A stretch of DNA of 64,000 bases from a virus (IMGVR_UViG_3300033073_001657:29419-93418), one strand, 5' to 3'; counted from the first letter of the stretch, positions 49,564-62,808 are shown. Notes: generated from the letters alone by a model not told the origin. Translations and numbers: made by a program.

Positions 49564-50309
49564 TCTTGTGTGACTATTGGAACTAATATCTTTTCAACAA
49601 AGGTTTGCATGTCTTCAGTATCAATCGTGTCCAGAGAATCTCTTTCAGAGTGACAGTTGTAAACCATTGAAAAATCTAAATATTCATCTCCCCATTTTAC
49701 ATTCGACTCACCTTCGGTCAATATCGGTAGGGGATTGATTACGACAGAATCGATTCCATGCTTTCTAAAGATCACCGAATCATTGAATGGAGTACGAACT
49801 ATCGGACATTCAAAGATCCCTCTAATGTGATCTGATAATTTACCTGGGTAATCGCCAATAAAGAAAGTATCTCCTCCTTTTCCAGTCAGTTCAAGGTTAA
49901 GAATCCATTCGACTTCTCCGAACTCTCCGCCATTGACCTGATTAGCTAAATGTTCTGAACCTAGACCTCCGACCTCTTCGCCATCTAAAAGAACGACGGT
50001 TAATTCAGGACAAAGGAGTTTTAGTGCGATCGCATTTATCACCGATGCTGAATTATCGTTTGCATTATCGATGTTTGGATTCACGATGTCATGATGGGCA
50101 GTGACAATCCTATTGCTCGTACCTCGTAAAACGATATTGAATCCTCGATTATTATCATCGATCCACCACGTGTGAAGTTCCTGAAGAATTCCATGTTTTT
50201 GAATAAGTTCAGTCAAGAAATTTACTCGTGGAGTAGTGTCAAATCCGTTTCTATAACACGAACCAGTGTTTCTTGCTTTACAGAATTCTATTATCTCTTC
50301 ATATATCAT
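49560..50309 (-). CDS. M28-family zinc aminopeptidase-like protein
   Basis: Motifs AHHD (HxD), NANDNSASV (DDxSG-like), LLDGEEVGGLGS (EExGLxGS) and ILNLELTG. Confidence 0.55.
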   Translation of the reverse strand: MIYEEIIEFCKARNTGSCYRNGFDTTPRVNFLTELIQKHGILQELHTWWIDDNNRGFNIVLRGTSNRIVTAHHDIVNPNIDNANDNSASVINAIALKLLCPELTVVLLDGEEVGGLGSEHLANQVNGGEFGEVEWILNLELTGKGGDTFFIGDYPGKLSDHIRGIFECPIVRTPFNDSVIFRKHGIDSVVINPLPILTEGESNVKWGDEYLDFSMVYNCHSERDSLDTIDTEDMQTFVEKILVPIVTQE

Positions 50310-50376: not shown

Positions 50377-50769
50377 TTATTCTTCTACTTTAGAGTATTT
50401 TCTAGAAGTTCTAGAGGTTGCGCTTAATAGAGTAGGTGCAGCCGCCCCTTCAGGTAAAGGAACAGTCATTATGTATTTGATGCTTGGGCACTTTCCAGCA
50501 AGGGCAATGATATCCACCGTGTCTTCATGAGTGTCTTTACCTGCAAACTCTACTTTTTCTGAGACTAATTGATCACTTAAGTCAATTCTTTTAAACTGCT
50601 CTCTAACCGCGAGCTTAACTTCAGCAACAGTCAAACTATCTGATTCTTTATTGATGTCAAAGACGAATGATCTAGTTGCAGGTTTAGTTGTTCCTTCAAA
50701 GAAGGCTTCTACTTTTACGAATGCTTTCATGTTTATGAATTTAAGTTTTTTTAATAGTATGAATACCAT
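50377..50769 (-). CDS. hypothetical protein
   Basis: 130-aa ORF. Confidence 0.45.
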   Translation of the reverse strand: MVFILLKKLKFINMKAFVKVEAFFEGTTKPATRSFVFDINKESDSLTVAEVKLAVREQFKRIDLSDQLVSEKVEFAGKDTHEDTVDIIALAGKCPSIKYIMTVPLPEGAAAPTLLSATSRTSRKYSKVEE

Positions 50770-52934
50770 GCTGGGAAGTCATTCTCCCACCAATAATCAC
50801 TCGGACCGACGTTTACTACGCTTACTGATGACTGTCCAAAATAATAGTGATCTGATGCATTAACATTTGTATCAGGTACAATACTAATAATTGCACGATC
50901 AGTAAGATTCCATACATCGACTTCACCAGTCACGTTAGCATCTGCCGAGATGTTTGTTCCAGATAAAATATTTCCTTTTAGATCATATAAGTTGGCACTC
51001 CAACCGCCGATGTTATTTTGCCATGCAAATAACAGAGTATCACGGCCAAGTTCTCCTTTCCAATCATTTGAATAGATCATAGGTAGAGTATACTCGAAAT
51101 AATCTTCACGTAGGATAGAAATGGTCTTGCCATAGTCAGCATCATCTACTCCAGTATCATGAACGATCACGATTGATCCCCATCCAGTGTTATTTGGATA
51201 GTATGCGAACTCAATGGTCGGCGAGATATCACCATACCCGTTCTTATGAGAAACGAATACTTTATTGTACCAAACACCAGTCTCAGTATTAAGATCTAGA
51301 ATATCGTAGTTTGAGTTTTTATTCACAATATACGTTCTTTCACTGCTGAAATCGACTATTGCCAGCGTATCATGCGTTCGATAATATTGAGTGGATGAAC
51401 CTAAGTTCTGAGATACAGAATTGCTCTGCCCATCACTATCAACTTTAATCCAAAAATATGTATTGTTACTATTATCGTAAAAACAATATAGTCTCGCAGA
51501 ACTTAGGAAGAAGCCATCGACTAACTTAGAAGTATTGATACTAATTGCTGCGTTTACGACAGTACGCGAAGCATTAGGCTTAAAGATCACTCTTTGATAA
51601 TTCTCGCTGCCTCGACCGACTCCCTCATCCCAGGTAAATCCGTCGAAGATGATTGTTTGGTCTTCACTAAATGAACGAATCACTCTTTCATAATCGAAGT
51701 GGAAAGTATCAAACGCATAAGCTAGAGTAGTGTCTTCGCTAAAACTTGAAGTTCCATCAAATAGTACATAAGTATTTAATGTATCTACTCGATACCACCA
51801 TATGTTATTATCATACCAACTGTCGATCTCGTTAGAATAGGTCACCATCAAATCATTACTTAAGGTTACTCCAAGTATTCCGTCATCATTATAGTCAGAC
51901 ATTCCATTAGGATAATCTGAATCCCAATAGTGATAATAAACATTGATGTCTAATAGATTAGCACCGGCGGCTGTCTGTTGGATGATCTCATTCGTGTTAT
52001 AATCGTATGAGCAAATTAAATTTGAATCGTCGGAAGATCCGCTTAATATAAAAAAGTATTTATTATTTCCATAAAAAGAATCTCTTCTAAAGTTATCGTG
52101 TTGGTATGAAGTAAGATTAAGAGATTTTATAACTGCACCGGTTGAATCAAACACTTTAAATGATTTATATTCACCAGTTGTATAATCTGCCTTAGTCACT
52201 GTGATAAAGTCTGCATTCCAATCATTTGTAATATTCCAAGTCTCTTCTCCTGTTATGATACTATCGACTATTGAAACTGAACCATTAATCATGGTTCCTA
52301 AATAGTATTTGGTTGAATCAGCACTTCTCCAACTAATAAAAGTCTCTCCGTTTTTCATTGGATGTACGGAATAGTCAGCACCACCTCCAAATGGATATAA
52401 GTAAATATCACTAATCGTATATTTCTTAACTGTTGATCCATTAAATATGTGGAGTTCTAATCCAGTGGTTTCAGATATTGCATATACGTAAAACATTACT
52501 CCATTTTTAACATAACGACCTGTTACAACATACTGAGTAGTATCAATCGTTAGTTTCTTGATCACGTCTCCGTTAATATCAGTAAAAATATATTTTCTGA
52601 TATTATTACTTGAATATCGTAAAATGAAGCCCTTGTCTTGTAAAACATAAATCGTATCTGAATATGTCGACGGTATATTAGTAGCTCTAATATCAGTTAA
52701 CATATCAGTATCGTAGTTATACGTATAATACTTGTATTCTCCATCTTCTATGAAACTACTCATTGACGACCGACCAGTCAGTGCATAATTTTTCGCAAGC
52801 CCGCCTGATCCAGCAGCGGCTGCTGCCGCCATTGCCGCACTATACGACATCTGCTCGAACAGCATACGTTCTTCCATCTTGCGTCGAATTTCCTTCTGCT
52901 CAGGAGTCTCATGTCCCCAGTTAATAAATGACAT
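50751..52934 (-). CDS. tail fibre/tailspike-like protein (shared N-terminal anchor domain)
   Basis: 727 aa. N-terminal MSFINWGHETPEQKEIRRKMEE...AAAAAAGSGG is about 70% nucleotide-identical to the N-terminus of ORF 61891-62757. The C-terminus is Asn/Tyr/Ser/Thr-rich. Late box at 52947-52961. Confidence 0.55.
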   Translation of the reverse strand: MSFINWGHETPEQKEIRRKMEERMLFEQMSYSAAMAAAAAAGSGGLAKNYALTGRSSMSSFIEDGEYKYYTYNYDTDMLTDIRATNIPSTYSDTIYVLQDKGFILRYSSNNIRKYIFTDINGDVIKKLTIDTTQYVVTGRYVKNGVMFYVYAISETTGLELHIFNGSTVKKYTISDIYLYPFGGGADYSVHPMKNGETFISWRSADSTKYYLGTMINGSVSIVDSIITGEETWNITNDWNADFITVTKADYTTGEYKSFKVFDSTGAVIKSLNLTSYQHDNFRRDSFYGNNKYFFILSGSSDDSNLICSYDYNTNEIIQQTAAGANLLDINVYYHYWDSDYPNGMSDYNDDGILGVTLSNDLMVTYSNEIDSWYDNNIWWYRVDTLNTYVLFDGTSSFSEDTTLAYAFDTFHFDYERVIRSFSEDQTIIFDGFTWDEGVGRGSENYQRVIFKPNASRTVVNAAISINTSKLVDGFFLSSARLYCFYDNSNNTYFWIKVDSDGQSNSVSQNLGSSTQYYRTHDTLAIVDFSSERTYIVNKNSNYDILDLNTETGVWYNKVFVSHKNGYGDISPTIEFAYYPNNTGWGSIVIVHDTGVDDADYGKTISILREDYFEYTLPMIYSNDWKGELGRDTLLFAWQNNIGGWSANLYDLKGNILSGTNISADANVTGEVDVWNLTDRAIISIVPDTNVNASDHYYFGQSSVSVVNVGPSDYWWENDFPAWYSYY

Positions 52935-52946
52935 ATTAAAAAGTTA

Positions 52947-52961
52947 TTTTAGTTATTTATC
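52947..52961 (-). promoter_or_regulatory. late-type promoter box (GATAAATAACTAAAA on - strand)
   Basis: Recurrent motif. Confidence 0.45.
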
Positions 52962-53000
52962 TTACTCTTATTTTAAAATTAGATCTCTATTTTGTATAAT

Positions 53001-53957
53001 ATGTACATGAAAAAAAGAAGCATAGGCAATACGATCGAACGAATTCGAGAAGAAATGAGATTAGAAGAAGAACCAAAGGACTTAACTGTTCCGTGTTGTT
53101 GGAGCAATTTGAAGAACGATGCATTTGCGCCAGCGTATATCACAGTAGAACAGGTTCCAGCTGGCGTATATGAGATCGATTATAATAGCTCGATAGGTAC
53201 ACATACATTAAATAAGCAGCCATTCAAAACGGATGAATTATATCATCTCCCTTCTCCTGAGATCATGGATATCCTTAAAGATATCGAAAACTTTTGGACC
53301 AGGGCAGATATCTATCGTAAGTACAACTTTGTACATAAACGAGGTATCTTAATGTATGGAGAACCCGGATGTGGTAAATCAGGTATCATTCAGATCCTAG
53401 CTAACATGCTGATGGAATTGAATGGAATTGTGATCAATATTAAGTCGCAGCAAGATATCGATTACTTCATTGATTTTATCCCAACATTTAGAAAGATTGA
53501 GCCATCACGACCGCTAGTCGTGATTCTTGAAGACATCGATGCTCTTGCTGGAGAGGACAGATATTCTACTTCTCAACTCTTAAATATCCTAGATGGAGTA
53601 AAACAGATTGAGGGAGTAGTGTATATTGCAACGACGAACTATCCAGAAAAATTACAGGAACGTTTGACTAATCGACCTTCTCGATTTGATCGTCGATACA
53701 AGATCGAGTTGCCTAGCAAAGAGATTCGCCGAGCTTACATCACAAATAAGCTTAATGCAGAGGACCTTGCCAATATCGATCTTGATGAATGGGTAAAGAG
53801 AACCGACGGCATGTCGCTATCTCACCTAAAAGAAGTAGTGGTGTCAGTTGTTGTAATGGGCAGAACTTTTGAGGAGACAATAGATTCTCTTGAAGAACTT
53901 AAGAAGGCACCTAAAGTAAAAGAAACTAAACAAGTAGGTTTTGGAACAGAACGATAA
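53001..53957 (+). CDS. AAA+ ATPase (classic AAA clade)
   Basis: Walker A GEPGCGKSG, Walker B VVILEDID, and the SRH-like TTNYPEKL...RPSRFDRRY. The track starts the ORF at TTG 52992, which is probably a TTGTATAAT promoter box. ATG at 53001 or 53007 is preferred. Confidence 0.75.
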   Translation: MYMKKRSIGNTIERIREEMRLEEEPKDLTVPCCWSNLKNDAFAPAYITVEQVPAGVYEIDYNSSIGTHTLNKQPFKTDELYHLPSPEIMDILKDIENFWTRADIYRKYNFVHKRGILMYGEPGCGKSGIIQILANMLMELNGIVINIKSQQDIDYFIDFIPTFRKIEPSRPLVVILEDIDALAGEDRYSTSQLLNILDGVKQIEGVVYIATTNYPEKLQERLTNRPSRFDRRYKIELPSKEIRRAYITNKLNAEDLANIDLDEWVKRTDGMSLSHLKEVVVSVVVMGRTFEETIDSLEELKKAPKVKETKQVGFGTER

Positions 53958-54339
53958 TTGGAAATTTTTTAAAGAGATTGACTTCTCAGACGAGTCGGTC
54001 ATAAAATATAACGTTGATACTCGAGACTTCCATGTGAGTTGCATGAGAGCGGAGGATATAGATTCAGAGTTCGATACGACCAAGATAGAGAAGTACGCAG
54101 ATCGCTTCTTTCACACCTCAGACGAGGTCATTGATCTATTGGATCGGTACTTTATTGAGAGCGGAGGCCGAGTCAAGTGGAGGTTCTTTTCGCTAGAAGG
54201 AATAGATAACTGGTCAATGAAATACATCAGAATTCGTCGCACGCCTCATGGATTAGTAGTATGTAATGAGGACAATCGAGCTCTAAGAAAAGATATTTTA
54301 GCGAATAAAGTTAATCCGGAACATTTAAGTGCTCACTAA
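53941..54339 (+). CDS. hypothetical protein
   Basis: 132-aa ORF. Confidence 0.45.
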   Translation: MEQNDNWKFFKEIDFSDESVIKYNVDTRDFHVSCMRAEDIDSEFDTTKIEKYADRFFHTSDEVIDLLDRYFIESGGRVKWRFFSLEGIDNWSMKYIRIRRTPHGLVVCNEDNRALRKDILANKVNPEHLSAH

Positions 54340-54370
54340 TTTATAGTATAATAATTAAAATCAATAACTT

Positions 54371-54577
54371 ATGGTAATTACAATCGCAATCTTAAGCCTA
54401 ATTGGAATGATCCTTAGTCTTTTTAACAATGTCTTTAATCACGATAAGTGTGATGTTAATCTTCTTTTTCCAGCAATTTTAACAATTGCAGTATGGGAAG
54501 CAAATATTACTCTAGCCATAATTACAATAGTTGTGACTGCAGTGATCGCAATAATTGGTTTAGCGCATAATAATTAA
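54371..54577 (+). CDS. small membrane protein
   Basis: 68 aa with two transmembrane helices. The TAGTATAATAAT box at 54345-54356 lies upstream. Confidence 0.45.
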   Translation: MVITIAILSLIGMILSLFNNVFNHDKCDVNLLFPAILTIAVWEANITLAIITIVVTAVIAIIGLAHNN

Positions 54578-54579
54578 AT

Positions 54580-54882
54580 ATGAAACACTTAATCAAACAG
54601 TATCCTAACGATCAGGAATTAGGTCGCGCGATACGAAAACGATTCTTAACTGAAGGTGATGAAGCAGCTGAGCTCTTAAAGGAGGTTCTTGCTCTACATG
54701 GATTTGGTGGGTATGGTTATACGAACGGTTTAGTCGAAAGAGGTATTTATCTTGAGACAGAAGACGGTCAGATCAGAAAGTGGAAGAACTCTTGTGATGG
54801 CGAGATGATGAATGAAGTAGATGCAAAAATAAGAGCATTCTTAGAAAAAATAGGAGACAATGACAGGAAAGATCGTAAATAA
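54580..54882 (+). CDS. hypothetical protein
   Basis: 100-aa ORF. Confidence 0.45.
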   Translation: MKHLIKQYPNDQELGRAIRKRFLTEGDEAAELLKEVLALHGFGGYGYTNGLVERGIYLETEDGQIRKWKNSCDGEMMNEVDAKIRAFLEKIGDNDRKDRK

Positions 54883-55093
54883 GGATAATGAGTTAATGGT
54901 TGAGTACTTGACTCAGTACGGTAGAACTAAAACGATTCCTATTATCAAAGCACCTGAGTCAATCAAAGAGGGACATGTAGTTGATTTTCAACCAGTTGAC
55001 GAGTTTTCTCATCCTATGCTCTTCGTAAACGTTGGCCTTTTTGAAGGGCTTGAATCAGCACTAATCCTAGTAGACTACGGCAACAATGATTGA
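54860..55093 (+). CDS. hypothetical protein
   Basis: 77-aa ORF. Confidence 0.4.
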   Translation: MTGKIVNKDNELMVEYLTQYGRTKTIPIIKAPESIKEGHVVDFQPVDEFSHPMLFVNVGLFEGLESALILVDYGNND

Positions 55094-55418
55094 TGATATT
55101 AAGATCGTGCATCTAAAGAGCAATGCACAACGTCTTGAGACATGGATCGCTATGGTCAATGGTGAGATAGTTGGTCACATCTATATGGAACGAGAAGAGA
55201 ATAAGAAGATCAAGTTCTTGGATGCTTGGGTTCATGAAGATCACCGACGTAAAGGAATATTCAGAAGTCTTTGGGATGCTAGATGGGACTATGTACAATT
55301 AAAGTTTAAAGGCTATCTAGTCTATGCTTGGTGTAAGCCGGCTTCTCTACCTCTACTTATTGAAAAGGGCTTTGATGCTGGTGAGACATGTACATATGTT
55401 GAAAAAATAGTAGATTAA
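55086..55418 (+). CDS. small GNAT-like acetyltransferase (putative)
   Basis: HEDHRRKGIFRSLW resembles GNAT motif A (R/Q-x-x-G-x-G/A). Confidence 0.35.
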   Translation: MIDDIKIVHLKSNAQRLETWIAMVNGEIVGHIYMEREENKKIKFLDAWVHEDHRRKGIFRSLWDARWDYVQLKFKGYLVYAWCKPASLPLLIEKGFDAGETCTYVEKIVD

Positions 55419-56413
55419 GCGATTCCTTTTGGGCCATCAATCGATGGAAATCTTGCCGGGTTAGTGAAAGCAATAAATATCTGACGAATATATGCGCCTT
55501 TTCCCTGCCAACCGAAATCCTTTATGTCTTTGATCTCAACGTTAGGGTCAGCTAAACCTGATTTAATTCGAGTCTTAAGCTCATCGATTTGAAGTTTAGC
55601 TCTAGCGATAGAGCCAGATGGACCTTCCTTCGGTCCAGCCCCTCCTCTACTTGTCAATCCCATCCACGCTTTACCGTCTTTACTCTCCTCAATAACTACT
55701 CTCCAATTTACTTTCCAAGAGGAATCATCCATTTTAATATCAATGCTCGTAATCTCAGGATTACGACCGCTCTGATAGAATTCTAGCAGTGCTTTATTTA
55801 CTTTAGTGTTCATCATTCCTCCGAAACCATCCTTTTTTCTAGACTGGAATGAGTGCATCGCGTCGTAGTCTCCAGGTCTAGGGGAATACGATCCCTCGAC
55901 AATTACCCTGTTTGGAGTAGACCTTTGAGATCCAGTAGAGATCGATGCATATTTTTTTAGAGCTCCCCAATGGAGTGGACTATTTGACTTAGATTCGCCT
56001 GGAACAATTCCTTCACCTCGACTAAAACCAGAACCTACATATACATTTTTTGCAGGTATCCCATTTTTTACTGCATTTACTACTATTTGTTTAGCGCTAG
56101 GTCCGTGTGGCTCAATTATGAAAACTCTACTAGGATTGATGTGAGGACTTTTTGATATTTCTTCAGCCTTACTACATCCTGCACTAAACATATAAACGTC
56201 AATCTTTGGATTTTTAGATAAGAATTCTAGTATTACTGAAGTAGGAGTGTTATATCTAAAGCCTTTTACGTTCTTAGAAGAGCCGTATGTCTTCTTTAAT
56301 AGTTGTACCTGTTGATCGATCTTATAATCACTAGGTCGATAGTCAAGTCCACCGATTAGCACTGCATCATACGATGAACCTTCATAATCTTCGTAAATTT
56401 TAATGTACTTCAT
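55415..56413 (-). CDS. virion protein candidate with CTS-like N-terminus (MKYIKIYEDYE)
   Basis: 332 aa. Late box at 56414-56428. Confidence 0.55.
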   Translation of the reverse strand: MKYIKIYEDYEGSSYDAVLIGGLDYRPSDYKIDQQVQLLKKTYGSSKNVKGFRYNTPTSVILEFLSKNPKIDVYMFSAGCSKAEEISKSPHINPSRVFIIEPHGPSAKQIVVNAVKNGIPAKNVYVGSGFSRGEGIVPGESKSNSPLHWGALKKYASISTGSQRSTPNRVIVEGSYSPRPGDYDAMHSFQSRKKDGFGGMMNTKVNKALLEFYQSGRNPEITSIDIKMDDSSWKVNWRVVIEESKDGKAWMGLTSRGGAGPKEGPSGSIARAKLQIDELKTRIKSGLADPNVEIKDIKDFGWQGKGAYIRQIFIAFTNPARFPSIDGPKGIA

Positions 56414-56448
56414 ATTTTTTATTTATTCTATTTTGTAGTATAATAGTC
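56414..56448. promoter_or_regulatory. back-to-back divergent promoter core (late box for - gene, TAGTATAAT box for + gene)
   Basis: attttttatttattctattttgtagtataatag lies between ORFs 55415-56413 (-) and 56451-57101 (+). Confidence 0.4.
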
Positions 56449-56450
56449 TC

Positions 56451-57101
56451 ATGATAGACAACTTGGAACTCATAAGACCCTTACTTAACTTCTCAGAACC
56501 AGGAGATTTCTATATGCTCTATGTGTTTAAACGTAAGAAGGACCAGCCCGAAGGGGAACGCGAAAATCACCAGTCGGTCAGAACTATTAAAAGCTATTGC
56601 ATTGAGAGTATCGATCACCTAGAGAGACGCTGGGATGAGATCAAGCAGCTGTGCGAAGTATTTAAGGCTAGAGCTTATATTCATGTGCAAAAACAAAACC
56701 ATATGGAAGTCTCACTGAACATGATGGTCGACCTAGCTGAACGTATTCGAAATGGTGTCCCAAATCAAAAGGGACTCTTTGATTCGGTCGTTGGTCAAAT
56801 GAAGACTCAAGAGAAACGTTGGATCATTGACGTGGACGATCAAAAAGAGCCAAGCCCAATGATGGCAACATTTATTGAATATGAATGTATGCCATATACT
56901 GACATTATATTTGATGGTGCTGGTATGCCGGTCGGATTTGCAAAAGGTCCAAAGATCGAGGCAGTTATTCCCACTAAGAACGGACATCACTTGATCACCA
57001 AAAAATTTGACGTGCTGAAGTTTAGAGAGAAATATCCAGACATCGACATACAGAAGAAGAATCCGACTTTATTATATTATCCAAATTCACTAGAGAAATG
57101 A
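56451..57101 (+). CDS. hypothetical protein
   Basis: 216-aa ORF. Confidence 0.5.
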   Translation: MIDNLELIRPLLNFSEPGDFYMLYVFKRKKDQPEGERENHQSVRTIKSYCIESIDHLERRWDEIKQLCEVFKARAYIHVQKQNHMEVSLNMMVDLAERIRNGVPNQKGLFDSVVGQMKTQEKRWIIDVDDQKEPSPMMATFIEYECMPYTDIIFDGAGMPVGFAKGPKIEAVIPTKNGHHLITKKFDVLKFREKYPDIDIQKKNPTLLYYPNSLEK

Positions 57102-57424
57102 GTATAGTTATAGGAGGAAGCGCACTTAACTCATGTTATTATAACACGGCATACGGAGTATGTACACCACCAGTCCAAACAGTTAGTCCACCGTCTGAAG
57201 CTACTTATGTTTCTCTAGTAAAAAGAGTTGGACTTGACTGGAAGATTGAAATGCACGAAAGCAGAGACAAACAGAAACATCTTAATTATATTGAGAGTCT
57301 TCGTGGAAATCCAAATGTTGAAGTAGCGAAAGTCTTACAGTTTGTCAAAATTGCCGAGATTACTAATGTTTCGACTCAAAGTAAAGGCAAGAGTAATGAG
57401 CCTGATCTAGACAAGATATTATGA
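57098..57424 (+). CDS. hypothetical protein
   Basis: 108-aa ORF. Confidence 0.45.
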   Translation: MSIVIGGSALNSCYYNTAYGVCTPPVQTVSPPSEATYVSLVKRVGLDWKIEMHESRDKQKHLNYIESLRGNPNVEVAKVLQFVKIAEITNVSTQSKGKSNEPDLDKIL

Positions 57425-57843
57425 TTGATTATCAGAAAATTTGTGAAGAATATGGAATCATCCTGCATCAAGTGGTTCCTGGAGACAAATGGTGTAAGAT
57501 GGAGGGAGAAGATCACTACATTAATCGATCTTTCTGTGCAGGTCGAGATGAGATCTGGTTGGGCATCTATGATGATCCAGACTGGAAGACGGCTTCCTTT
57601 TTTCATGAGATGGGTCACTGCTTGACTCAACAAGAATGGAACGACGAGATGCTTAAGTTCCATTACGAATTGGATGCATGGTTAGTAGGTTTACAATTGG
57701 GTCAGGAATACGGATACTATGTCAAACCCAAGACAATAAAACAGTTTGTGATAAAGTCACTCTTTTCATACCAACACTGGGAAGCTAAGGAGATTCAAAA
57801 TCCGACTGGAGAAATAAAAGAATTAATTAAAAGATACAAATGA
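57421..57843 (+). CDS. HExxH zinc metallopeptidase-like protein
   Basis: FFHEMGHCL motif. Confidence 0.35.
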   Translation: MIDYQKICEEYGIILHQVVPGDKWCKMEGEDHYINRSFCAGRDEIWLGIYDDPDWKTASFFHEMGHCLTQQEWNDEMLKFHYELDAWLVGLQLGQEYGYYVKPKTIKQFVIKSLFSYQHWEAKEIQNPTGEIKELIKRYK

Positions 57844-58235
57844 AGACATTAGGACTAATCAATTATGAAGGTGACTGTTTAAAAGCAGTCAAAGTCGACA
57901 GCTATTTTATCAAAGTACTTGACCAGTATGGGGAATCATGTAGCACACTCACAGTTGAAGAATTTTACGGGTTCATCGACGGTCTGATCAACATCGTTGA
58001 TAGTAAAGGTAAGTCTTGGAATTTTCCAAGCGAACACAGGGACGCTAAGCCAAGCCAGTCGAGGATCTATCATTTTACGAAAGGTTTCAGGTTCACTGAA
58101 ACGGAGCTAAATGATGCCTTCGTTAAGGGTTGGGAGCTTCGACACATGGGTCTGAGTGATGAACTGATCATTCACGAATTCGTAGGTTTCTTAAACGAAG
58201 TTCACGGAAAAAGAGAAAAAAGGAGAAATACTTAG
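57840..58235 (+). CDS. hypothetical protein
   Basis: 131-aa ORF. Confidence 0.45.
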   Translation: MKTLGLINYEGDCLKAVKVDSYFIKVLDQYGESCSTLTVEEFYGFIDGLINIVDSKGKSWNFPSEHRDAKPSQSRIYHFTKGFRFTETELNDAFVKGWELRHMGLSDELIIHEFVGFLNEVHGKREKRRNT

Positions 58236-58257
58236 TATAATAACTAAAAATTAAATC

Positions 58258-58773
58258 ATGTTAAAATTTTATGAATTAAGTCAAAATAATACTGGTGGCT
58301 CATTCGATGTCGACAGTAAGCTATGTCATCGCCTAGTCATTGAGGCTGGATCAGAAGAGGAAGCCTTATCGATAGCCGAAGATCTAGGTTGTTACTGGTA
58401 TGGAGTCGATAATGGAAATGACTGTCCTTGTTGCGGAGACCGATGGTATCGATCTGCCAGTGAAATAGATATTGAAACGTATAATGAAAAATGGAATGGG
58501 ATGGAACTCTCTGAGTGGGGCACTTCTTCGGAGACCGATCATGACAAAGCTATTAAGGAGCTCGAAGCAAAGTATCCGGGTGTCGAATGGTCAGTTAAAC
58601 CTCAGGCTGAAGACAAGTATGGATCAGTTAGAGTGACTGGAAGGATCCGACTGAGAAGCATGGAAGAGTATGCTCAACTCATGGCAGATCAGTTTGGCTG
58701 GACGACGCCAGATATTCGAATCTTTTACAAGAACGGAGAAGTCAAAGAAATATTCAGTAAAAAAGTAAAATAA
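58258..58773 (+). CDS. hypothetical protein
   Basis: 171 aa. The box TAGTATAATAACTAAAAA at 58233-58250 lies upstream. Confidence 0.5.
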   Translation: MLKFYELSQNNTGGSFDVDSKLCHRLVIEAGSEEEALSIAEDLGCYWYGVDNGNDCPCCGDRWYRSASEIDIETYNEKWNGMELSEWGTSSETDHDKAIKELEAKYPGVEWSVKPQAEDKYGSVRVTGRIRLRSMEEYAQLMADQFGWTTPDIRIFYKNGEVKEIFSKKVK

Positions 58774-58774
58774 T

Positions 58775-59323
58775 ATGAAACTTAATCACAACAGTATCTC
58801 AGCTCGATTATATCGCTGGTTTTATATCACAGATCAGATGCCGCAAAACTTATGTCCATATTTTTGGAAACTCGTAATCATGTGGGTGTTAATCATTCCA
58901 TATGGTCTGATCTCCTTACCGACGATAGTCACTAACCAGGCTCCAGAAGAATGGGGAGTCAGACCTCTCTTCGGAGCATTCATGTACCTCTTCCTATTTG
59001 TGGTATTCATAGCTCTATTTCCATTGACCTACTTCGTTTGGGGCTGGTTTGGTCACAACTCAACATTTGGTAAGTGGCAAGTCGGAGGTATTTTAATCTG
59101 GGCAGTAGTTTTAATGATTGCAGTCGTTTGGGGAATACTAAGGATTATCGATAGGAGAAAACGTATAAGGAGACATCGTCAGACTGAATTTATATGGAAT
59201 GATGAGGGAGATTATATACCAAATCCTGATTATGTTCCATACGAGGAGAAACCAAGCATCATCATTGAATTTATTAAGGCAAAATATAATAAGTACTGTC
59301 CTAAGATAGATTGGACCGAATAA
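58775..59323 (+). CDS. multi-pass membrane protein
   Basis: 182 aa with several hydrophobic helices. Confidence 0.5.
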   Translation: MKLNHNSISARLYRWFYITDQMPQNLCPYFWKLVIMWVLIIPYGLISLPTIVTNQAPEEWGVRPLFGAFMYLFLFVVFIALFPLTYFVWGWFGHNSTFGKWQVGGILIWAVVLMIAVVWGILRIIDRRKRIRRHRQTEFIWNDEGDYIPNPDYVPYEEKPSIIIEFIKAKYNKYCPKIDWTE

Positions 59324-59721
59324 ATTACACCATGACAGAAGAGAGTAAAATAATGATTTTCAACCAGACTTTAATTAGTCAGGTTGACTTACGAAGTAAT
59401 CCTGAAGAAGAATTGGGACTTGACTGGGATATCCATGCAGATAGTATAGTTAAAGGTGACCTCTATTGTGATGCCGGACTAGTCAACATCGATCAACTGA
59501 TCGATACCTTGACTGAGATGAGAAGCAAAGGTGCAACTCACGCTGCATGTGACTGGCATTGTGACCATCAGGAGCTTGAAGTATATGGAGTCAAGTTTGA
59601 GCTCGCAAGCGAAGAGGAACGTCAAGCCCACTTTGATCGAGTAAAAGAACGTGACCAAAAGAAAAAAGAGATGGAGATTAAGGCTCTTGAACACAAGTTG
59701 GCTAAACTAAAAGGAGAATAA
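59311..59721 (+). CDS. hypothetical protein
   Basis: 136-aa ORF. Confidence 0.45.
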   Translation: MDRINYTMTEESKIMIFNQTLISQVDLRSNPEEELGLDWDIHADSIVKGDLYCDAGLVNIDQLIDTLTEMRSKGATHAACDWHCDHQELEVYGVKFELASEEERQAHFDRVKERDQKKKEMEIKALEHKLAKLKGE

Positions 59722-59722
59722 G

Positions 59723-59947
59723 ATGTTAGATATTTCAAAACTAAAGATCGGAGACCGTGTCCATTACACACCATTTGAAGGGTGTGATGAGTCCCTGATC
59801 GAAAACGGTAGAGTCAAGGAGATTCCGGATCACACCAATACTTCAGTGAGAGTAGTCTTTAACTGTGCTGGTGAGTGGGACCTGTTCATGAATTACACCT
59901 CTCAGTTGACTCCAATTGATAAGCTTGAGATTGGATGGAAACACTAA
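59723..59947 (+). CDS. hypothetical protein
   Basis: 74-aa ORF. Confidence 0.4.
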   Translation: MLDISKLKIGDRVHYTPFEGCDESLIENGRVKEIPDHTNTSVRVVFNCAGEWDLFMNYTSQLTPIDKLEIGWKH

Positions 59948-60074
59948 GCGAAAAGTGGTTTACTTTTAGGAGGATTCCATGTAAGGAAGGGTGTATCGAT
60001 ATGTGGCAAGGAGATCAGGCTAATGATCCGAATCGAGATGAAAGTCACCATATAACTTGAACTCAGGCTCGACC

Positions 60075-60317
60075 ATGTTCAGGCTTAATGGCGAGGGACA
60101 ATGGTACCATCAGTCAAGCCTAGTCGGTCTCTATCCCGACATCATTATTGGATATCCTGAAATATTTTCAGCGACTGACCTGTGGTACATGGCTCAAATC
60201 AAGACGATTCATCGAGTGACCAGTTATTCAAAGGAAGAGTGCGGAGTTCTACTTGAGGAACATGGAACAGTCGATGCAGCAATCGCATGGTTTGTTAAAA
60301 ATAAAAAATCAAAGTAA
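60075..60317 (+). CDS. hypothetical protein
   Basis: The track starts the ORF at TTG 60057. An internal ATG is preferred. Confidence 0.35.
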   Translation: MFRLNGEGQWYHQSSLVGLYPDIIIGYPEIFSATDLWYMAQIKTIHRVTSYSKEECGVLLEEHGTVDAAIAWFVKNKKSK

Positions 60318-60589
60318 TGAATACACCAGTTATTGGAGAATACCGATTGATTCCGAAAGGAACGCCTGTGTGGTCAATACATAATCAGTTATCGATGATC
60401 TTGAGTGATGATGAGATCGTTGAAATTACACATACTGTTGTGGTCGGTGATTATGTATACTGTAAACCTAAACAACTTCTATTTAATATTCCAGGTCATA
60501 TTCCTACTCTAATTGGTCGAGGTCAAGATGAATGGGGAATACAATATTCTAAAACTGAATCGTATTGTGTGCCAGAACCTCAATTCTAA
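60317..60589 (+). CDS. hypothetical protein
   Basis: 90-aa ORF. Confidence 0.4.
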   Translation: MNTPVIGEYRLIPKGTPVWSIHNQLSMILSDDEIVEITHTVVVGDYVYCKPKQLLFNIPGHIPTLIGRGQDEWGIQYSKTESYCVPEPQF

Positions 60590-60628
60590 TAAAACCATAG
60601 TTTTCTTTAAAGTAAAAGAAAGTAAACT

Positions 60629-61069
60629 ATGAAACTTTTAGTTATCAACTTCCTAAAGAAGTTGCTTAAACACAGGTGTAAGACTTTCAAGTTAGGCGAA
60701 GGCCACGTCAAAAGGTACACTATCATCGAGATCAGATCTCTATTCTCAATCTACATTCACGAAATCGAGACCCGTTGTCAGGACAGGTTCCATACCCATG
60801 CGTTCAATGCGATCGGATGGACCATAACTGGTGGATATCTTGAAGAACAGCTACCGTCCATGAATCATGCTGGTCCAGGTAAAATAGTCAAGGTCTCAGG
60901 AGTCAGGCGGATTCCTCGAGAGCTTAATCATAAGCTTCTAAGAGCATTACCTAACACGAATACTATTCTTTTTACTGGTGCCTACTCTCATCTCTGGACA
61001 GAGGAAGATGACGAAGGAGTCAAGGTGATCACGACACATCAACAAATAGTCGGACATTTTAAAAAATAA
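60629..61069 (+). CDS. hypothetical protein
   Basis: 146-aa ORF. Confidence 0.45.
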   Translation: MKLLVINFLKKLLKHRCKTFKLGEGHVKRYTIIEIRSLFSIYIHEIETRCQDRFHTHAFNAIGWTITGGYLEEQLPSMNHAGPGKIVKVSGVRRIPRELNHKLLRALPNTNTILFTGAYSHLWTEEDDEGVKVITTHQQIVGHFKK

Positions 61070-61105
61070 GTTTAATATCTCTCTAGTTTTGAGTATACTA
61101 TACCC

Positions 61106-61426
61106 ATGGAAGATAAATCACCAACTAAGATCCGAGTTGAACGAGAGATTTTCAGAAAGGACTCTCAAAAACCTTTTACTTGGAAACAACTGAAGGAGAT
61201 CAAATTTAAAGATGATGATCGTCTTGAAATCGGTTATGACGAAGGTCATTACTCAGAAAACAACTCATGGGACCCACATTATTATGCGGTAGTGTATCGA
61301 ATGGAGGAGGAGACTGATATCGAGTTTGAAAGACGTCAGGCCAGAATAGTGATAGATGAAAAGTTGATGAAGAAACGTCGATACGAAAGCTACCTAAAAC
61401 TTAAAAAAGAATTTGAGAATGAATAG
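61106..61426 (+). CDS. hypothetical protein
   Basis: 106-aa ORF. Confidence 0.45.
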   Translation: MEDKSPTKIRVEREIFRKDSQKPFTWKQLKEIKFKDDDRLEIGYDEGHYSENNSWDPHYYAVVYRMEEETDIEFERRQARIVIDEKLMKKRRYESYLKLKKEFENE

Positions 61427-61640
61427 AGAAGAGATCTTCGCTGTTACTCAGGCGATGTGCCTTGAGACATATAATGAGAATGACAAATACTTCTGTATCA
61501 AGGGAGTCAATGGTCATGCAACAACCGTCTACTATGGAGATGGAGCAATGGCGATGTTGCGTGGTCATCTAATTCAAATGGGCCGAGACGAGCTAAAAAT
61601 GGAACTCAATCAGCTATTGGATATAACTAAACATCATTAG
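61413..61640 (+). CDS. hypothetical protein
   Basis: 75-aa ORF. Confidence 0.4.
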   Translation: MRMNREEIFAVTQAMCLETYNENDKYFCIKGVNGHATTVYYGDGAMAMLRGHLIQMGRDELKMELNQLLDITKHH

Positions 61641-61646
61641 AATAAG

Positions 61647-61889
61647 ATGGAACTAGTTAAAGTAATCTTAGTGCTCTCTATGGCATGTCAAACGGCCTCA
61701 TTTGTTGTGATCTCAATCATGGGTCAAGATGCACCCAAACTCATAAGGATTTTCGGATGGATCTCATCGGCAATCGTCATTATCGCACTATCGACGTTCA
61801 TATCATACGTTGATAGCGATACTTATCGTGATCGACCTTGCCCTGAATACAAGAGGATTGAAACGCCTGTCTATAAATTAGTAGAATAA
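61647..61889 (+). CDS. small membrane protein
   Basis: 80 aa with two transmembrane helices. Confidence 0.4.
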   Translation: MELVKVILVLSMACQTASFVVISIMGQDAPKLIRIFGWISSAIVIIALSTFISYVDSDTYRDRPCPEYKRIETPVYKLVE

Positions 61890-61890
61890 A

Positions 61891-62757
61891 TTATCTTTTG
61901 CTTGATCTGCGAGCTTCTCCGCTTGACATCATAGATCTTCTCATACCAAGTTGAGGAGTATAGCTCTTTCCTGAAAGATAAGAGTGAATGTTCATTCGTA
62001 AGTAAGTGGCTTCAGGCTGAGGGTCGTGAAACTCAGTGACGGTCATTCCCCCAAAGATCACTTTACCATCACCCCAGCTAATTTCTCCACAGACAATCTT
62101 CTCTCCAGGATTCACGATTAATGTTGTTATGCTGCCCTCGATTATTGCATGAGCAAAGGAATTTCCAGTCCAAACATCTCCGCAATTTCCAGGACCAATA
62201 AATATCGGATGGCTTTCTTGACCAGTTGAGATCGTCACTTGATCTGAGTTATTTACGTCGTCTGCATAGATTAGAGTAGTTCCACCGAATCCGAGATTAA
62301 TATTTCCTCCTTCATTTGGTGCAGCATTTAGAAATAGGTTACCTCCGCTATAAACCCAGTTCTCGATAATTTCATGGTTATCTGCCAAGAATGTGGCAAG
62401 CTCTTCTGCACCGTTGTCACTACCGTCAATAAAAACATAGGTCGTTCCTTCAGCAAATACTCCAGCAGGATCGACTGATTCGAATGTATTTAGGGCCCAT
62501 CCATTTTCTCCAAAAACCGCATTGAGTTCATTAATATTTGTGGTCCCATCCCAAGGCTCAGTGTTTGCATCGTCTCCGCTAGAATCAAATGCTCTTAGAT
62601 AATAAACAGTAGGTGCTTTCTTAATTCCACCTGAGCCTGCAGCTGCCGCTGCAGTCGCTGCGCTTTGCATAGCTTGTTCAAGAAGCATCTGTTCTTCCAA
62701 TAGTTTACGTATCCTTAGTTGTTCTGGGCTCTCGCTGCCCCAATTGATAAATGACAT
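61891..62757 (-). CDS. tail fibre/receptor-binding-like protein, paralog of ORF 50751-52934 N-terminus
   Basis: N-terminal MSFINWGSESPEQLRIRKLLEEQ...AAAAAGSGG. The C-terminus is Gly/Asn-rich. An ATAAATAAAACAAATAAAC box lies upstream. Confidence 0.55.
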   Translation of the reverse strand: MSFINWGSESPEQLRIRKLLEEQMLLEQAMQSAATAAAAAGSGGIKKAPTVYYLRAFDSSGDDANTEPWDGTTNINELNAVFGENGWALNTFESVDPAGVFAEGTTYVFIDGSDNGAEELATFLADNHEIIENWVYSGGNLFLNAAPNEGGNINLGFGGTTLIYADDVNNSDQVTISTGQESHPIFIGPGNCGDVWTGNSFAHAIIEGSITTLIVNPGEKIVCGEISWGDGKVIFGGMTVTEFHDPQPEATYLRMNIHSYLSGKSYTPQLGMRRSMMSSGEARRSSKR

Positions 62758-62765
62758 CTTAAAAT

Positions 62766-62808
62766 CGGTTTATTTGTTTTATTTATCATCAGAATTATAG
62801 TATAATAG
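62766..62808. promoter_or_regulatory. divergent promoter core: late-type box for the - fibre gene plus TAGTATAATAG box for a small + ORF
   Basis: ggtttatttgttttatttatc ... tagtataatag. A 27-aa ORF at 62813-62896 follows on the plus strand. Confidence 0.35.

What the first reader, a model, noticed from the sequence alone, without database searches (positions are those of the whole stretch)
50751..62757. Two fibre-like proteins share a conserved 45-aa N-terminal module with divergent C-termini
ORF 50751-52934 (727 aa) begins MSFINWGHETPEQKEIRRKMEERMLFEQMSYSAAMAAAAAAGSGG. ORF 61891-62757 (288 aa) begins MSFINWGSESPEQLRIRKLLEEQMLLEQAMQSAATAAAAAGSGG. The nucleotide sequences are also similar. After the module the sequences are unrelated: one is Asn/Tyr/Ser/Thr-rich and the other Gly/Asn-rich. 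Both lie behind late-type boxes. This is the pattern of interchangeable receptor-binding proteins that share one virion-attachment adaptor domain, and it implies dual or alternative host-receptor specificity.
Basis: seen in the sequence. Interest (0 to 1): 0.6.

Follow-up and report, generated by a model that had tools for sequence, protein, structure and literature searches.

The report
Shared N-terminal docking tag, swappable cargo
Two late genes of an uncultured T4-like jumbo phage begin with the same about 45-residue helical tag, which in related phages heads about 30 unrelated, mostly adhesin-like globular domains, so it is most likely a tag that attaches interchangeable binding proteins to the virion, although neither protein is a fibre and the attachment site is unknown.

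Summary
ORF A (50751-52934, minus strand, 727 aa) and ORF B (61891-62757, minus strand, 288 aa) share 30 of their first 48 residues (E 5e-12) and nothing afterwards. They are the only two copies in the window. "Fibre-like" is wrong. Both models show an N-terminal helix (residues 11-40) and a disordered Ala/Gly linker, followed by a globular body. ORF A's body is tandem beta-propellers. ORF B's is a glutamine-amidotransferase-like alpha/beta domain whose cellular homologues are secreted Bacteroidota proteins.

The tag defines a phage-restricted family of 153 clusters among 1.84 billion proteins. It always sits at residue 1 and heads about 30 unrelated cargoes, including LRR, LamG and PKD domains, propellers and poly-Thr tails. 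There is also a cargo-less 62-75-aa member. Partial genomes carry up to four copies.

The tag is far more conserved than the cargo, and synonymous sites between the two window copies are saturated. Conserved genomic slots hold different cargoes. ORF A-type genes are followed by a cognate small partner gene. Most copies sit about 26 nt behind a late-type ATAAATA box.

Best reading: a virion-docking tag for interchangeable surface binding proteins. Whether it docks on the tail, on the head or inside the capsid is unresolved. It is a new variant of a known principle.

The parts
52953..52960 (-). Late-type promoter-like box ATAAATAA (context GATAAATAACTAAAA), 26 nt upstream of the ORF A start codon
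   Evidence: 20 of the 26 boxes in the window lie 8-45 nt upstream of an ORF start on the same strand, against 0.66 expected. Relatives have the same box at -24 to -28 in 32 of 44 module genes.
52800..52934 (-). ORF A module, codons 1-45: invariant N-terminal hook MSFINWG, an amphipathic helix, an Ala-rich segment and GSGG
   Evidence: The module scores 109 bits against the family profile. AlphaFold predicts a helix at residues 11-40 followed by a disordered linker.
50751..52799 (-). ORF A cargo: acidic (pI 4.4), all-beta, tandem beta-propeller body that ends in ...ENDFPAWYSYY
   Evidence: pLDDT 75, regular 4-strand repeats. (Foldseek hits to tandem-propeller proteins EMC1, UTP, LRP6 and DDB1, at fold level only). 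(orthologues at 49-56% identity, distant 930-aa family)..
50377..50730 (-). Small partner gene of ORF A. The true start is Met14 of the listed ORF, giving 117 aa; it begins 20 nt after the ORF A stop. Function unknown; candidate chaperone or adaptor.
   Evidence: 62-65% identical to the genes that follow ORF A orthologues in L077 and L078. In L078 a second cassette has its own unrelated 127-aa partner; the 930-aa family has a 92-aa partner in the same position. Searches find no Pfam or PHROGs hit.
62779..62786 (-). Late-type box ATAAATAA (context GATAAATAAAACAAA), 29 nt upstream of the ORF B start codon
62623..62757 (-). ORF B module, codons 1-45 (MSFINWGSESPEQLRIRKLLEEQMLLEQAMQSAATAAAAAGSGG)
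   Evidence: 90 bits. AlphaFold predicts a helix at residues 11-40 and disorder at 41-49.
61891..62622 (-). ORF B cargo: acidic globular alpha/beta domain (residues 50-262) with a class I glutamine-amidotransferase-like fold, plus a disordered basic Ser/Arg tail
   Evidence: pLDDT 86.7. (matches domain B of GH42, GH164 and GH112 enzymes, E about 1e-6, 11-14% identity, with no catalytic barrel); homologues at 35-47% identity in Crocinitomicaceae, Chitinophagales and other bacteria, with signal peptides, T9SS C-terminal domains, fn3 or PEP-CTERM.
53001..53957 (+). AAA+ ATPase gene, the conserved divergent neighbour that marks one edge of the ORF A slot (context, not shown to be functionally linked)
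   Evidence: PF00004, E 1e-17. Searches show it conserved next to the module gene in L001, L004-L007, L036, L077 and L078.
49560..50309 (-). M28-family peptidase gene, the conserved neighbour that marks the other edge of the ORF A slot. It is inverted here relative to relatives. (Context, not shown to be functionally linked.)
   Evidence: PF04389, E 5.5e-10.. In relatives a stand-alone 63-66-aa module gene follows it; the window has none there.

Best explanation
The first 30-45 residues of both proteins form a portable docking module. It consists of an invariant N-terminal hook (MSFINWG-x-E), a helix of about 30 residues and a flexible Ala/Gly-rich hinge. I propose that the module fixes otherwise unrelated, late-expressed globular binding domains to a common site on the virion, so that the cargo hangs on a flexible tether at the particle surface. 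New cargoes arise by recombination just downstream of the module, within conserved slots or at new slots. Some cargo domains, such as ORF B's, were captured from secreted surface proteins of Bacteroidota. ORF A and its cognate small partner gene look like an adhesin or receptor-binding cassette with its chaperone or adaptor, and ORF B looks like an accessory displayed domain. Shown: the module exists, is portable, is restricted to this phage clade, is always at the N-terminus and is under strong protein-level constraint; cargo is exchanged at conserved slots; a late-type box lies upstream; the cargoes have globular, adhesin-like folds. Inferred: incorporation into virions, surface exposure, binding function and the docking site (baseplate or tail, versus neck or capsid).
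For: The module heads about 30 unrelated cargo clusters. It always occupies residues 1 to about 48 in the 153 cluster representatives found among 1.84 billion proteins, and 14 clusters were already seen in the IMG/VR loci. The module is 72-95% identical where the cargo is 22-54% identical. Synonymous sites between the two window copies are saturated, so selection acts on the peptide. The ORF A slot, bounded by the AAA ATPase and the M28 peptidase, holds a 727-aa propeller protein here, a 542-aa LRR+LamG protein in L001 and L036, and a protein of about 930 aa in L004-L007. The position equivalent to ORF B's holds a 268-aa LRR protein in L012 and L013. Partial genomes carry up to four copies. 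The recognisable cargo domains are all of extracellular or adhesive type: LRR_4/5/8, the EndoS-type LRR, Laminin_G_3, PKD, DUF285, PQQ and DUF5122 propellers, and poly-Thr tails. Cellular homologues of ORF B's cargo are secreted, with a signal peptide plus a T9SS C-terminal domain. Both AlphaFold models show a helix at residues 11-40, a disordered linker and then a globular body. A late-type box sits at a nearly fixed distance upstream. A cognate small partner gene lies 20 nt downstream of ORF A-type and 930-aa-type genes, and in L078 a second cassette carries a different partner. This is the layout of tail-fibre genes with their chaperones (established knowledge, for example T4 gp37/gp38). 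Short conserved N-terminal docking peptides on secondary receptor-binding proteins (RBPs) are documented in Klebsiella phages, and that paper also discusses truncated RBPs retained as docking sites (PMC6872550).
Against: There is no direct evidence that any family member is in a virion, and no cultured relative exists. The nearest portal proteins are 31-38% identical and belong to huge uncultured phages and Lak phages. The cargoes have monomeric globular folds, unlike the trimeric fibres and spikes of known RBPs. The genes are scattered among non-structural genes rather than grouped in a tail module. No docking partner was identified, and only 64 kb of a genome estimated at about 250 kb is available. 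The module contains an invariant Glu27 inside a hydrophobic-x-Glu motif that fits the T4 prohead-protease rule, so a cleaved targeting propeptide remains possible. The cargo-less member of about 65 aa cannot itself be a receptor-binding protein.
Confidence: 0.52

Rival explanations
1. Strict first-reader version. Both proteins are tail-fibre or baseplate receptor-binding proteins attached through one adaptor domain, which gives the phage two alternative host-receptor specificities. This is a narrower case of the best explanation.
For: It rests on the same comparative evidence as the best explanation. The partner gene downstream of ORF A-type genes resembles an RBP plus chaperone pair. Cargo swapping at a conserved slot is typical of host-range cassettes (PMC6872550).
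Against: Neither body is fibrous, beta-helical or depolymerase-like. There is no Pfam or PHROGs tail-fibre signal. The genes are not in a tail gene cluster. The family includes members of 62-200 aa and poly-Thr tails that cannot be receptor-binding fibres. ORF B has no partner gene. With up to four or more paralogues competing for one site, a simple 'dual specificity' picture is unlikely.
Confidence: 0.22
2. The module is a long capsid-targeting propeptide. It would be a second class of leader beside the T4-type short leaders seen on other late genes of this phage. It would load diverse proteins into the prohead core and then be cut off by the prohead protease after Glu27, and the cargo would be ejected into the host.
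For: T4 internal proteins share only an N-terminal targeting leader, are hypervariable and sit in plastic loci (PMC3012670; PMC9026906), which is the same population-level pattern as here. Glu27 is invariant. The residue two positions before it (P3) is L, I, M or V, and the residue after it is Q or A. In the window copies this gives L-F-E|Q in ORF A and L-L-E|Q in ORF B, both of which fit the gp21 L/I-x-E rule. The same late box precedes the genes that carry T4-CTS-like leaders.
Against: The module is 45 residues long rather than 10 and is unlike the CTS. Conservation continues past the putative cut site into the Ala-rich helix and the Gly hinge, which a discarded propeptide would not need. 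All cargoes are strongly acidic, with pI 4.0-5.0 and net charge down to -106, whereas T4-type internal proteins are described as basic. The cargo folds are extracellular-type binding domains, one of them derived from secreted host proteins. The phage already has a separate short-leader system on at least 13 genes. A hydrophobic-x-Glu motif is easily found by chance in a Glu-rich helix.
Confidence: 0.18
3. The module is only an oligomerisation or co-assembly helix, for example a coiled coil shared with the cargo-less member of about 65 aa. On this reading it joins late proteins that are not part of the virion, such as soluble factors released at lysis.
For: A long amphipathic helix is predicted in both proteins. 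The stand-alone member consists of the module plus a conserved acidic and aromatic C-terminal peptide and could be a partner subunit. Soluble, non-virion depolymerases have been proposed for some phages (PMC6872550).
Against: The strictly invariant extreme N-terminus (M1, F3, I4, N5, W6, G7, E9) points to a specific docking contact rather than a generic coiled coil. The module is always at residue 1. The fixed late box and spacing match those of other late genes.
Confidence: 0.12
4. The module is a secretion, sorting or membrane-targeting signal.
For: The Ala-rich stretch followed by GSGG loosely resembles an h-region and c-region. The cargoes are of extracellular type.
Against: There is no hydrophobic core, and 30 charged helical residues precede the Ala run. 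No cellular genome among 185,579 species representatives encodes the module; all 42 pattern hits are chance heptapeptides. Cellular homologues of ORF B's cargo use classical signal peptides and T9SS C-terminal domains, both of which the phage version lacks.
Confidence: 0.03

Closest known systems
Conserved N-terminal anchor domains and short 'conserved docking peptides' of multi-RBP phages (T7/K1F gp17 anchor; G7C, KP32, KP34, Menlow and PhiK64-1/RaK2 branched RBP systems; PMC6872550)
   Same: A short N-terminal sequence is conserved among paralogues and across related phages, and the rest of each protein is unrelated. Synteny is broken by cargo exchange at fixed slots. One genome carries several such proteins. 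Truncated members are retained.
   Different: There is no sequence similarity to any known anchor or peptide. The cargo is globular (beta-propeller, LRR, LamG, glutamine-amidotransferase-like) rather than trimeric beta-helix or fibre. The genes are scattered, each behind its own late box, rather than clustered in the tail module. No partner with a T4gp10-like branching domain was identified. The phage is a T4-like jumbo phage, probably infecting Bacteroidota.
T4 capsid targeting sequence (CTS) on internal proteins IPI, IPII, IPIII and Alt (PMC9026906, PMC3012670)
   Same: An N-terminal leader starting at residue 1 is the only feature shared by a hypervariable set of late proteins in plastic loci. 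A candidate L/I-x-E protease site is present.
   Different: The leader is 45 residues rather than 10 and has a different sequence. It includes a helix and a flexible hinge that are conserved beyond the putative cut site. The cargoes are large, acidic and adhesin-like rather than small and basic. A separate CTS-like leader family already exists in the same window.
Capsid and neck display proteins of T4-type phages (Hoc with Ig-like domains; fibritin/Wac with an N-terminal neck-binding segment); from established knowledge, not tested here
   Same: These are non-essential, late, surface-exposed proteins that present binding domains on a tether. Their genes lie outside the main structural clusters. 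Some family members carry PKD (Ig-like) domains.
   Different: There is no homology to Hoc or Wac. Hoc binds the capsid through its C-terminal domain, not through an N-terminal peptide. Hoc and Wac are single genes, not a multigene family of paralogues sharing one docking segment as seen here.
Adenovirus fibre N-terminal tail, and the PRD1 P5/P31 shared N-terminus (from established knowledge)
   Same: A short conserved N-terminal peptide docks different fibre or spike proteins to one vertex protein. Some adenoviruses encode two fibres with the same tail.
   Different: The viruses and sequences are unrelated, and the bodies in those systems are trimeric fibres.

Membership tests
Phage RBP systems with an N-terminal anchor or conserved docking peptide | N-terminus conserved among paralogous and orthologous proteins whose remainder is divergent | tested here: met
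Phage RBP systems with an N-terminal anchor or conserved docking peptide | Cargo exchanged at syntenic positions between related phages | tested here: met
   The slot between the AAA ATPase and the M28 peptidase holds proteins of 727, 542 (LRR+LamG) or about 930 aa.
Phage RBP systems with an N-terminal anchor or conserved docking peptide | Body is a trimeric fibre, tailspike (beta-helix) or depolymerase | tested here: not met
   The bodies are tandem beta-propellers and a glutamine-amidotransferase-like alpha/beta domain. Searches find no fibre, spike or depolymerase family hit.
Phage RBP systems with an N-terminal anchor or conserved docking peptide | Sequence homology to a described anchor domain or peptide | tested here: not met
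   Pfam, PHROGs and PDB sequence searches give nothing. tblastn of the module against 50,697 phage records gives no match.
Phage RBP systems with an N-terminal anchor or conserved docking peptide | A docking partner (adaptor or T4gp10-like branching domain) encoded in the genome | not testable with these tools
   Only 64 kb of a genome estimated at about 250 kb is available, and no multimer structure prediction could be run.
Phage RBP systems with an N-terminal anchor or conserved docking peptide | Protein present in the virion and needed for adsorption | not testable with these tools
   The phage lineage is uncultured.
T4-type capsid targeting sequence / internal proteins | Leader of about 10 residues with key aromatic residues at positions 4 and 7 (MKTYQEFIAE type) | tested here: not met
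   The module is 45 residues long and starts MSFINWG. CTS-like leaders do occur, but on 13 other ORFs of the window. CTS definition: PMC9026906.
T4-type capsid targeting sequence / internal proteins | Prohead-protease site L/I-x-E at the end of the leader | tested here: inconclusive
   Glu27 is invariant and P3 is L, I, M or V. However, conservation continues beyond the site, and the motif is easily found by chance in a Glu-rich helix.
T4-type capsid targeting sequence / internal proteins | Small basic cargo compatible with co-packaging with DNA | tested here: not met
   All cargoes have pI 4.0-5.0 and net charge from -3 to -106, and proteins reach 1,118 aa.
T4-type capsid targeting sequence / internal proteins | Hypervariable cargo behind a constant leader in plastic loci | tested here: met
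Sec, Tat or T9SS sorting signals | Hydrophobic h-region or twin-arginine motif, and use by cellular proteins | tested here: not met
   No hydrophobic core is present. None of the 42 genome hits is a real module. Cellular homologues of the cargo carry ordinary signal peptides instead.

The most novel reading that the evidence does not exclude
A clade of uncultured T4-like jumbo phages, probably infecting Bacteroidota, may run a natural 'plug-and-display' system. On this reading one 30-45-residue N-terminal docking peptide has its own cargo-less core subunit of about 65 aa. It lets the virion carry a changing mixture of 30 or more unrelated binding domains, including domains captured from the host's own T9SS-secreted surface proteins. 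Each gene would be inserted as a self-contained cassette of late promoter, tag and cargo. The docking principle and the partner would both be new, and the tag could be reused for phage display or host-range engineering.
Probability: 0.3. Interest if true: 0.7.

Novelty: new variant of a known kind. Interest (0 to 1): 0.5.

Why it matters
If the module is a virion-docking tag, it defines the attachment grammar of a whole uncultured clade of large freshwater phages. It would also immediately identify that clade's candidate adhesins and receptor-binding proteins, about 150 protein clusters that no database currently annotates. It would show that conserved-peptide docking, known from Klebsiella and Ackermannviridae tailspikes, can also carry globular lectin, LRR and propeller domains, including ones taken from host surface proteins. 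A 30-45-residue tag with a flexible hinge would be a compact handle for engineering. If the module is instead a capsid-targeting propeptide, it would be a second and much longer class of CTS, loading large acidic proteins into heads. Either outcome can be tested with a single proteomics experiment on an enriched environmental sample or a future isolate.

Tried and rejected
- Close relatives in GenBank phages. Megablast of 13 kb gave no match, and tblastn of the module gave no match even at E 10.
- Family annotation. Pfam and PHROGs gave nothing for ORF A, ORF B, the partner gene or most other family members. The DUF3116 hit on ORF A is below threshold and was ignored.
- Shared C-terminal signal. 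I asked whether the acidic and aromatic C-terminal peptide of the cargo-less members (…YVEDGYFE) is also present on cargo-bearing members, which would make the cargo an insertion between two conserved ends. Rejected: only the ORF A, 930-aa and 684-aa families share ND[FY]xxWY, and the other families end differently.
- Host from genomes. The DNA-pattern scan of 185,579 species genomes gave 42 hits, all chance heptapeptides. This is useful only as a negative result.
- Module against solved structures. The only hits are compositional, to Ala-rich helices, with E 0.03 or worse.
- Viral structure library. The only close matches to ORF A are uncharacterised proteins of uncultured phages. Matches to entries annotated as adhesin or tail fibre have TM-scores below 0.2 and were not used as evidence.
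- Recent duplication or gene conversion as the cause of the similarity. Rejected because synonymous sites are saturated.
- More sequence to the right of the window. The exact-protein look-up for ORF B returned only a 1.9-kb contig.

Full report
**1. The observation**

ORF A (50751-52934, 727 aa) and ORF B (61891-62757, 288 aa) both exist, on the minus strand. BLASTP aligns their first 48 and 47 residues at 30/48 identities with one gap (E 5e-12). Nothing after that is significant. A motif scan and a full-sensitivity profile search of all six reading frames find only these two copies, at 109 and 90 bits against noise of 5 bits or less. The composition claims hold: ORF A's cargo is enriched in Y, N, T and S, and ORF B's in G and N.

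Over the 44 aligned codons, nucleotide identity is 59%, 17 of 29 identical residues use different codons, and synonymous sites are saturated with pS 0.92. The similarity is therefore maintained by selection on the peptide. It is not a product of recent duplication or gene conversion.

**2. The genome**

The window comes from a distant T4-like myovirus with about 37% G+C. It encodes a gp20-type portal (9675-11393), a UvsW-like helicase, a family B polymerase fragment, a primase and a gp25-like wedge protein. GenBank holds no close phage. The nearest portal proteins are 31-38% identical and belong to huge uncultured phages and Prevotella Lak megaphages. Exact copies of both proteins sit on a 95.9-kb JGI contig, and relatives are the 'UFOVP' uncultured Caudovirales contigs of about 250 kb.

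**3. The late-type boxes**

Both genes have GATAAATAA 26-29 nt upstream of the ATG. The box ATAAATAA occurs 26 times in the window, and 20 of these lie 8-45 nt upstream of an ORF start on the same strand, against 0.66 expected by position. In relatives, 32 of 44 module genes have ATAAATA at -24 to -28. Many other genes in the window sit behind TAGTATAAT-type boxes instead. Timing of expression was not tested.

**4. Structure of the two proteins**

The AlphaFold model of ORF B was built from 38 sequences and has mean pLDDT 86.7. It shows a helix at residues 11-40, disorder at 41-49, a confident alpha/beta domain at 50-262 and a disordered basic tail. Foldseek matches the globular domain to 'domain B' of GH42, GH164 and GH112 enzymes, at E about 1e-6 and 11-14% identity. 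This domain has a glutamine-amidotransferase-like fold and is non-catalytic, and ORF B has no catalytic barrel.

The model of ORF A was built from 17 sequences and has mean pLDDT 75. It shows the same N-terminal helix and a disordered linker, followed by an all-beta body of regular four-strand repeats. That body matches tandem beta-propeller proteins such as EMC1, UTP proteins, LRP6 and DDB1, at fold level only. Neither protein is fibrous, beta-helical or depolymerase-like, so the 'fibre-like' label in the title does not hold.

**5. A portable, phage-restricted module**

- **Hits to ORF B's cargo.** Homology searches with ORF B recover orthologues that carry the module. They also recover cellular proteins from Crocinitomicaceae, Chitinophagales and other bacteria that share only the cargo domain. 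In those proteins the cargo sits behind classical signal peptides and is fused to T9SS C-terminal domains, fn3 or PEP-CTERM.
- **Module-only hits.** The same searches also pick up proteins that share only the module and carry quite different cargo. These include LRR, LRR+LamG and PQQ-propeller proteins and several with no annotation.
- **Copies in viral contigs.** A protein-pattern scan of IMG/VR found 33 loci. A DNA-pattern scan found 44 genes on 22 contigs, with up to four per partial contig.
- **Family size.** An exhaustive HMMER search of 1.84 billion cluster representatives found 153 with E of 1e-3 or better. In essentially all true members the module occupies residues 1 to about 48. Total lengths range from 42 to 1,118 aa.
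- **Cargo diversity.** The cargo of 74 longer representatives falls into about 30 unrelated clusters. The domains Pfam recognises are LRR_1/4/5/8, LRR_EndoS, Laminin_G_3, PKD and DUF285. Some cargoes are only poly-Thr tails.
- **Charge.** Every cargo is strongly acidic, with pI 4.0-5.0.
- **Absence from cells.** No real module was found in 185,579 species-representative bacterial and archaeal genomes; all 42 pattern hits were chance heptapeptides.

**6. Constraint and exchange**

Within ORF A orthologues the module is 72-95% identical while the rest is 48-54% identical. Against the family of about 930 aa the figures are 82-95% and 22-24%. Invariant positions cluster at the extreme N-terminus (M1, F3, I4, N5, W6, G7, E9) and along the helix (Q13, R17, E21, E27).

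Synteny shows cassette behaviour. The slot flanked by the AAA ATPase and the M28 peptidase carries ORF A in the window. It carries a 542-aa LRR+LamG protein in L001, L036 and L037, and proteins of about 930 aa in L004-L007. The position equivalent to ORF B's holds a 268-aa LRR protein in L012 and L013. Other genomes have module genes at further slots, including a tandem pair in L010 and L011. A diverged 138-aa member lies between the portal and gp25-like genes in L029-L032.

**7. Two further regularities**

First, there is a cargo-less sub-family of 62-75 aa. It consists of the module, a Gly-rich linker and a conserved acidic and aromatic C-terminal peptide (…N-x-Y-V-x-N-G-Y-V-E-D-x-Y-F-E). 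In several relatives its gene lies just beyond the M28 peptidase gene, behind its own late box. The window has none at that position.

Second, ORF A-type genes are always followed, 20 nt after the stop codon, by a small co-directional gene. In the window this is 50377-50730 (117 aa, starting at Met14 of the listed ORF). It is 62-65% identical to its counterparts in L077 and L078. L078 carries a second cassette, a 723-aa module protein with its own unrelated 127-aa partner. The 930-aa family has a 92-aa partner in the same position. A variable binding protein followed by a cognate small gene is the familiar layout of tail-fibre genes with their chaperones. That comparison rests on established knowledge (for example T4 gp37/gp38) and is an analogy, not a test.

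**8. Interpretation**

The best-supported reading is that the module docks interchangeable, adhesin-like proteins to a common site on the virion, tethered by the flexible hinge (confidence about 0.5).

- **Shown:** portability, restriction to this phage clade, exclusive N-terminal position, strong protein-level constraint, cargo exchange at conserved slots, the late-type box, and globular binding-type folds.
- **Inferred:** virion incorporation, surface exposure, binding function and the docking site.
  - the non-fibrous folds;
  - the scattered gene positions;
  - the very small and cargo-less members;
  - the higher copy number in relatives.
- **The main rival** is a long capsid-targeting propeptide (about 0.2).
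  - For it: T4 internal proteins share only an N-terminal leader and are hypervariable (PMC3012670; PMC9026906). Both window modules also contain an L-x-E site at the invariant Glu27 that fits the gp21 rule.
  - Against it: conservation continues past that site, the cargoes are acidic and of extracellular type, and the window already has a separate T4-CTS-like leader on at least 13 genes.
- **An oligomerisation-only, non-virion role** has about 0.1.
- **A secretion signal** has about 0.03.

**9. Comparison with known systems**

The system works like the conserved N-terminal anchors and docking peptides of multi-RBP phages (PMC6872550). It fails that group's structural criterion of a trimeric fibre or spike body, and it has no sequence homology to any described anchor. 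It shares population-level behaviour with T4 CTS proteins but fails on leader length and sequence and on cargo charge. I therefore rate it a new variant of a known principle. It is neither a member of a described family nor categorically new.

**10. Limits**

- There is no cultured relative and no proteomics.
- Only 64 kb of a genome estimated at about 250 kb was available.
- No multimer structure prediction could be run.
- The docking partner is unknown.

Noticed in passing
window ORF starts at 634(+), 3623(-), 4050(-), 8149(+), 13376(-), 18997(-), 19073(+), 21139(+), 34791(-), 37340(-), 39479(-), 47163(-), 56413(-): Thirteen of 86 ORFs of 100 aa or more begin with a leader that resembles the T4 capsid targeting sequence (for example MKEYIPTFSKFINE, MELLSFNQFINE, MKYIKLYEE, MKQYIQLFES, against T4 MKTYQEFIAE). 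These leaders end in a hydrophobic-x-Glu motif. Only 0.65 would be expected from the motif's internal frequency, and the leader is associated with the late box (Fisher p 0.0014). This suggests an unusually large set of head-targeted internal proteins. A few more look-alikes escaped the regex, at 13705(-), 14461(-), 15236(-), 16446(-), 27795(-) and 47531(+).
   Followed up: partly
window, 26 sites (e.g. 605+, 3643-, 13730-, 16472-, 19023-, 36205-, 47499+, 52960-, 56426-, 62786-): The consensus (A/G)ATAAATAA(T/C)(A/T)AAAA behaves as a late-promoter-like box 12-32 nt upstream of start codons; 20 of 26 occurrences are start-associated. A second set of genes, mostly on the plus strand, sits behind TAGTATAAT-type extended -10 boxes.
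   Followed up: partly
window 63055-63165 (+): Rfam calls a tRNA of 111 nt (41.7 bits) with canonical acceptor, D and T arms, but with 55 nt where the anticodon arm and variable region normally take about 17. ARAGORN missed it. It may carry an intron or be a degenerate or unusual tRNA. It lies about 300 nt upstream of ORF B, on the opposite strand.
   Followed up: partly
window 61891-62622 (-), ORF B cargo; P0010, P0016, P0032: ORF B's cargo domain is 35-47% identical to domains of secreted Bacteroidota proteins (Crocinitomicaceae, Chitinophagales, Crocinitomix catalasitica). Some of these have the domain duplicated, and some carry T9SS C-terminal sorting domains. This looks like host-to-phage domain capture and hints at a Bacteroidota host. 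Near-invariant motifs (DGSD, NAAPNEGG, HA) suggest a conserved pocket of unknown function.
   Followed up: partly
window 49560-50309 (-) versus L001, L004-L007, L036, L077, L078: The M28-family peptidase gene next to the ORF A slot is conserved in all relatives but is inverted in the window relative to them. In relatives it is flanked by module genes on both sides (cargo-bearing and stand-alone). Any functional link to the module is unknown. Gln28, which follows the invariant Glu27, would become an N-terminal Gln if the module were cleaved there, but that is pure speculation.
   Followed up: no
window 61891-61970 (-), C-terminus of ORF B; window 50377-50420 (-), C-terminus of the partner; L077 and L078 partners: ORF B and the small partner proteins of ORF A-type genes all end in disordered Ser/Arg/Lys-rich basic tails (…RRSMMSSGEARRSSKR; …SATSRTSRKYSKVEE; …NNRSKRSSKNND), although the proteins are otherwise acidic. 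This could be a shared assembly or nucleic-acid-binding tail.
   Followed up: no
P0015 (252 aa, ENA contig of 2 kb): A homologue of ORF B's cargo sits behind a different N-terminal helix followed by an Ala/Gly-rich linker (MNRQKELENIRQKSIESWASAQKKALHEAVKN…AQAAAGTG). This may be an analogous docking tag from another phage lineage carrying the same cargo.
   Followed up: no
L078 10001-15206: A relative has a tandem pair of cassettes in the ORF A slot: [743-aa module protein][127-aa partner][723-aa module protein with different cargo][unrelated 127-aa partner]. This shows cassette duplication followed by diversification in place.
   Followed up: partly
window 5565-6998 (+): The family B DNA polymerase ORF matches only the C-terminal part of full-length polymerase profiles (phrog_262 positions 501-840; also phrog_1918). 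It is preceded by genes on the opposite strand, so the polymerase appears to be split.
   Followed up: no
window 28953-30431 (+) and 31071-32933 (+): Two auxiliary genes are present: a nicotinamide/nicotinate phosphoribosyltransferase-family protein (PF04095, E 3e-31) and a 620-aa SPFH/Band 7 membrane protein (PF01145, E 3e-27).
   Followed up: no
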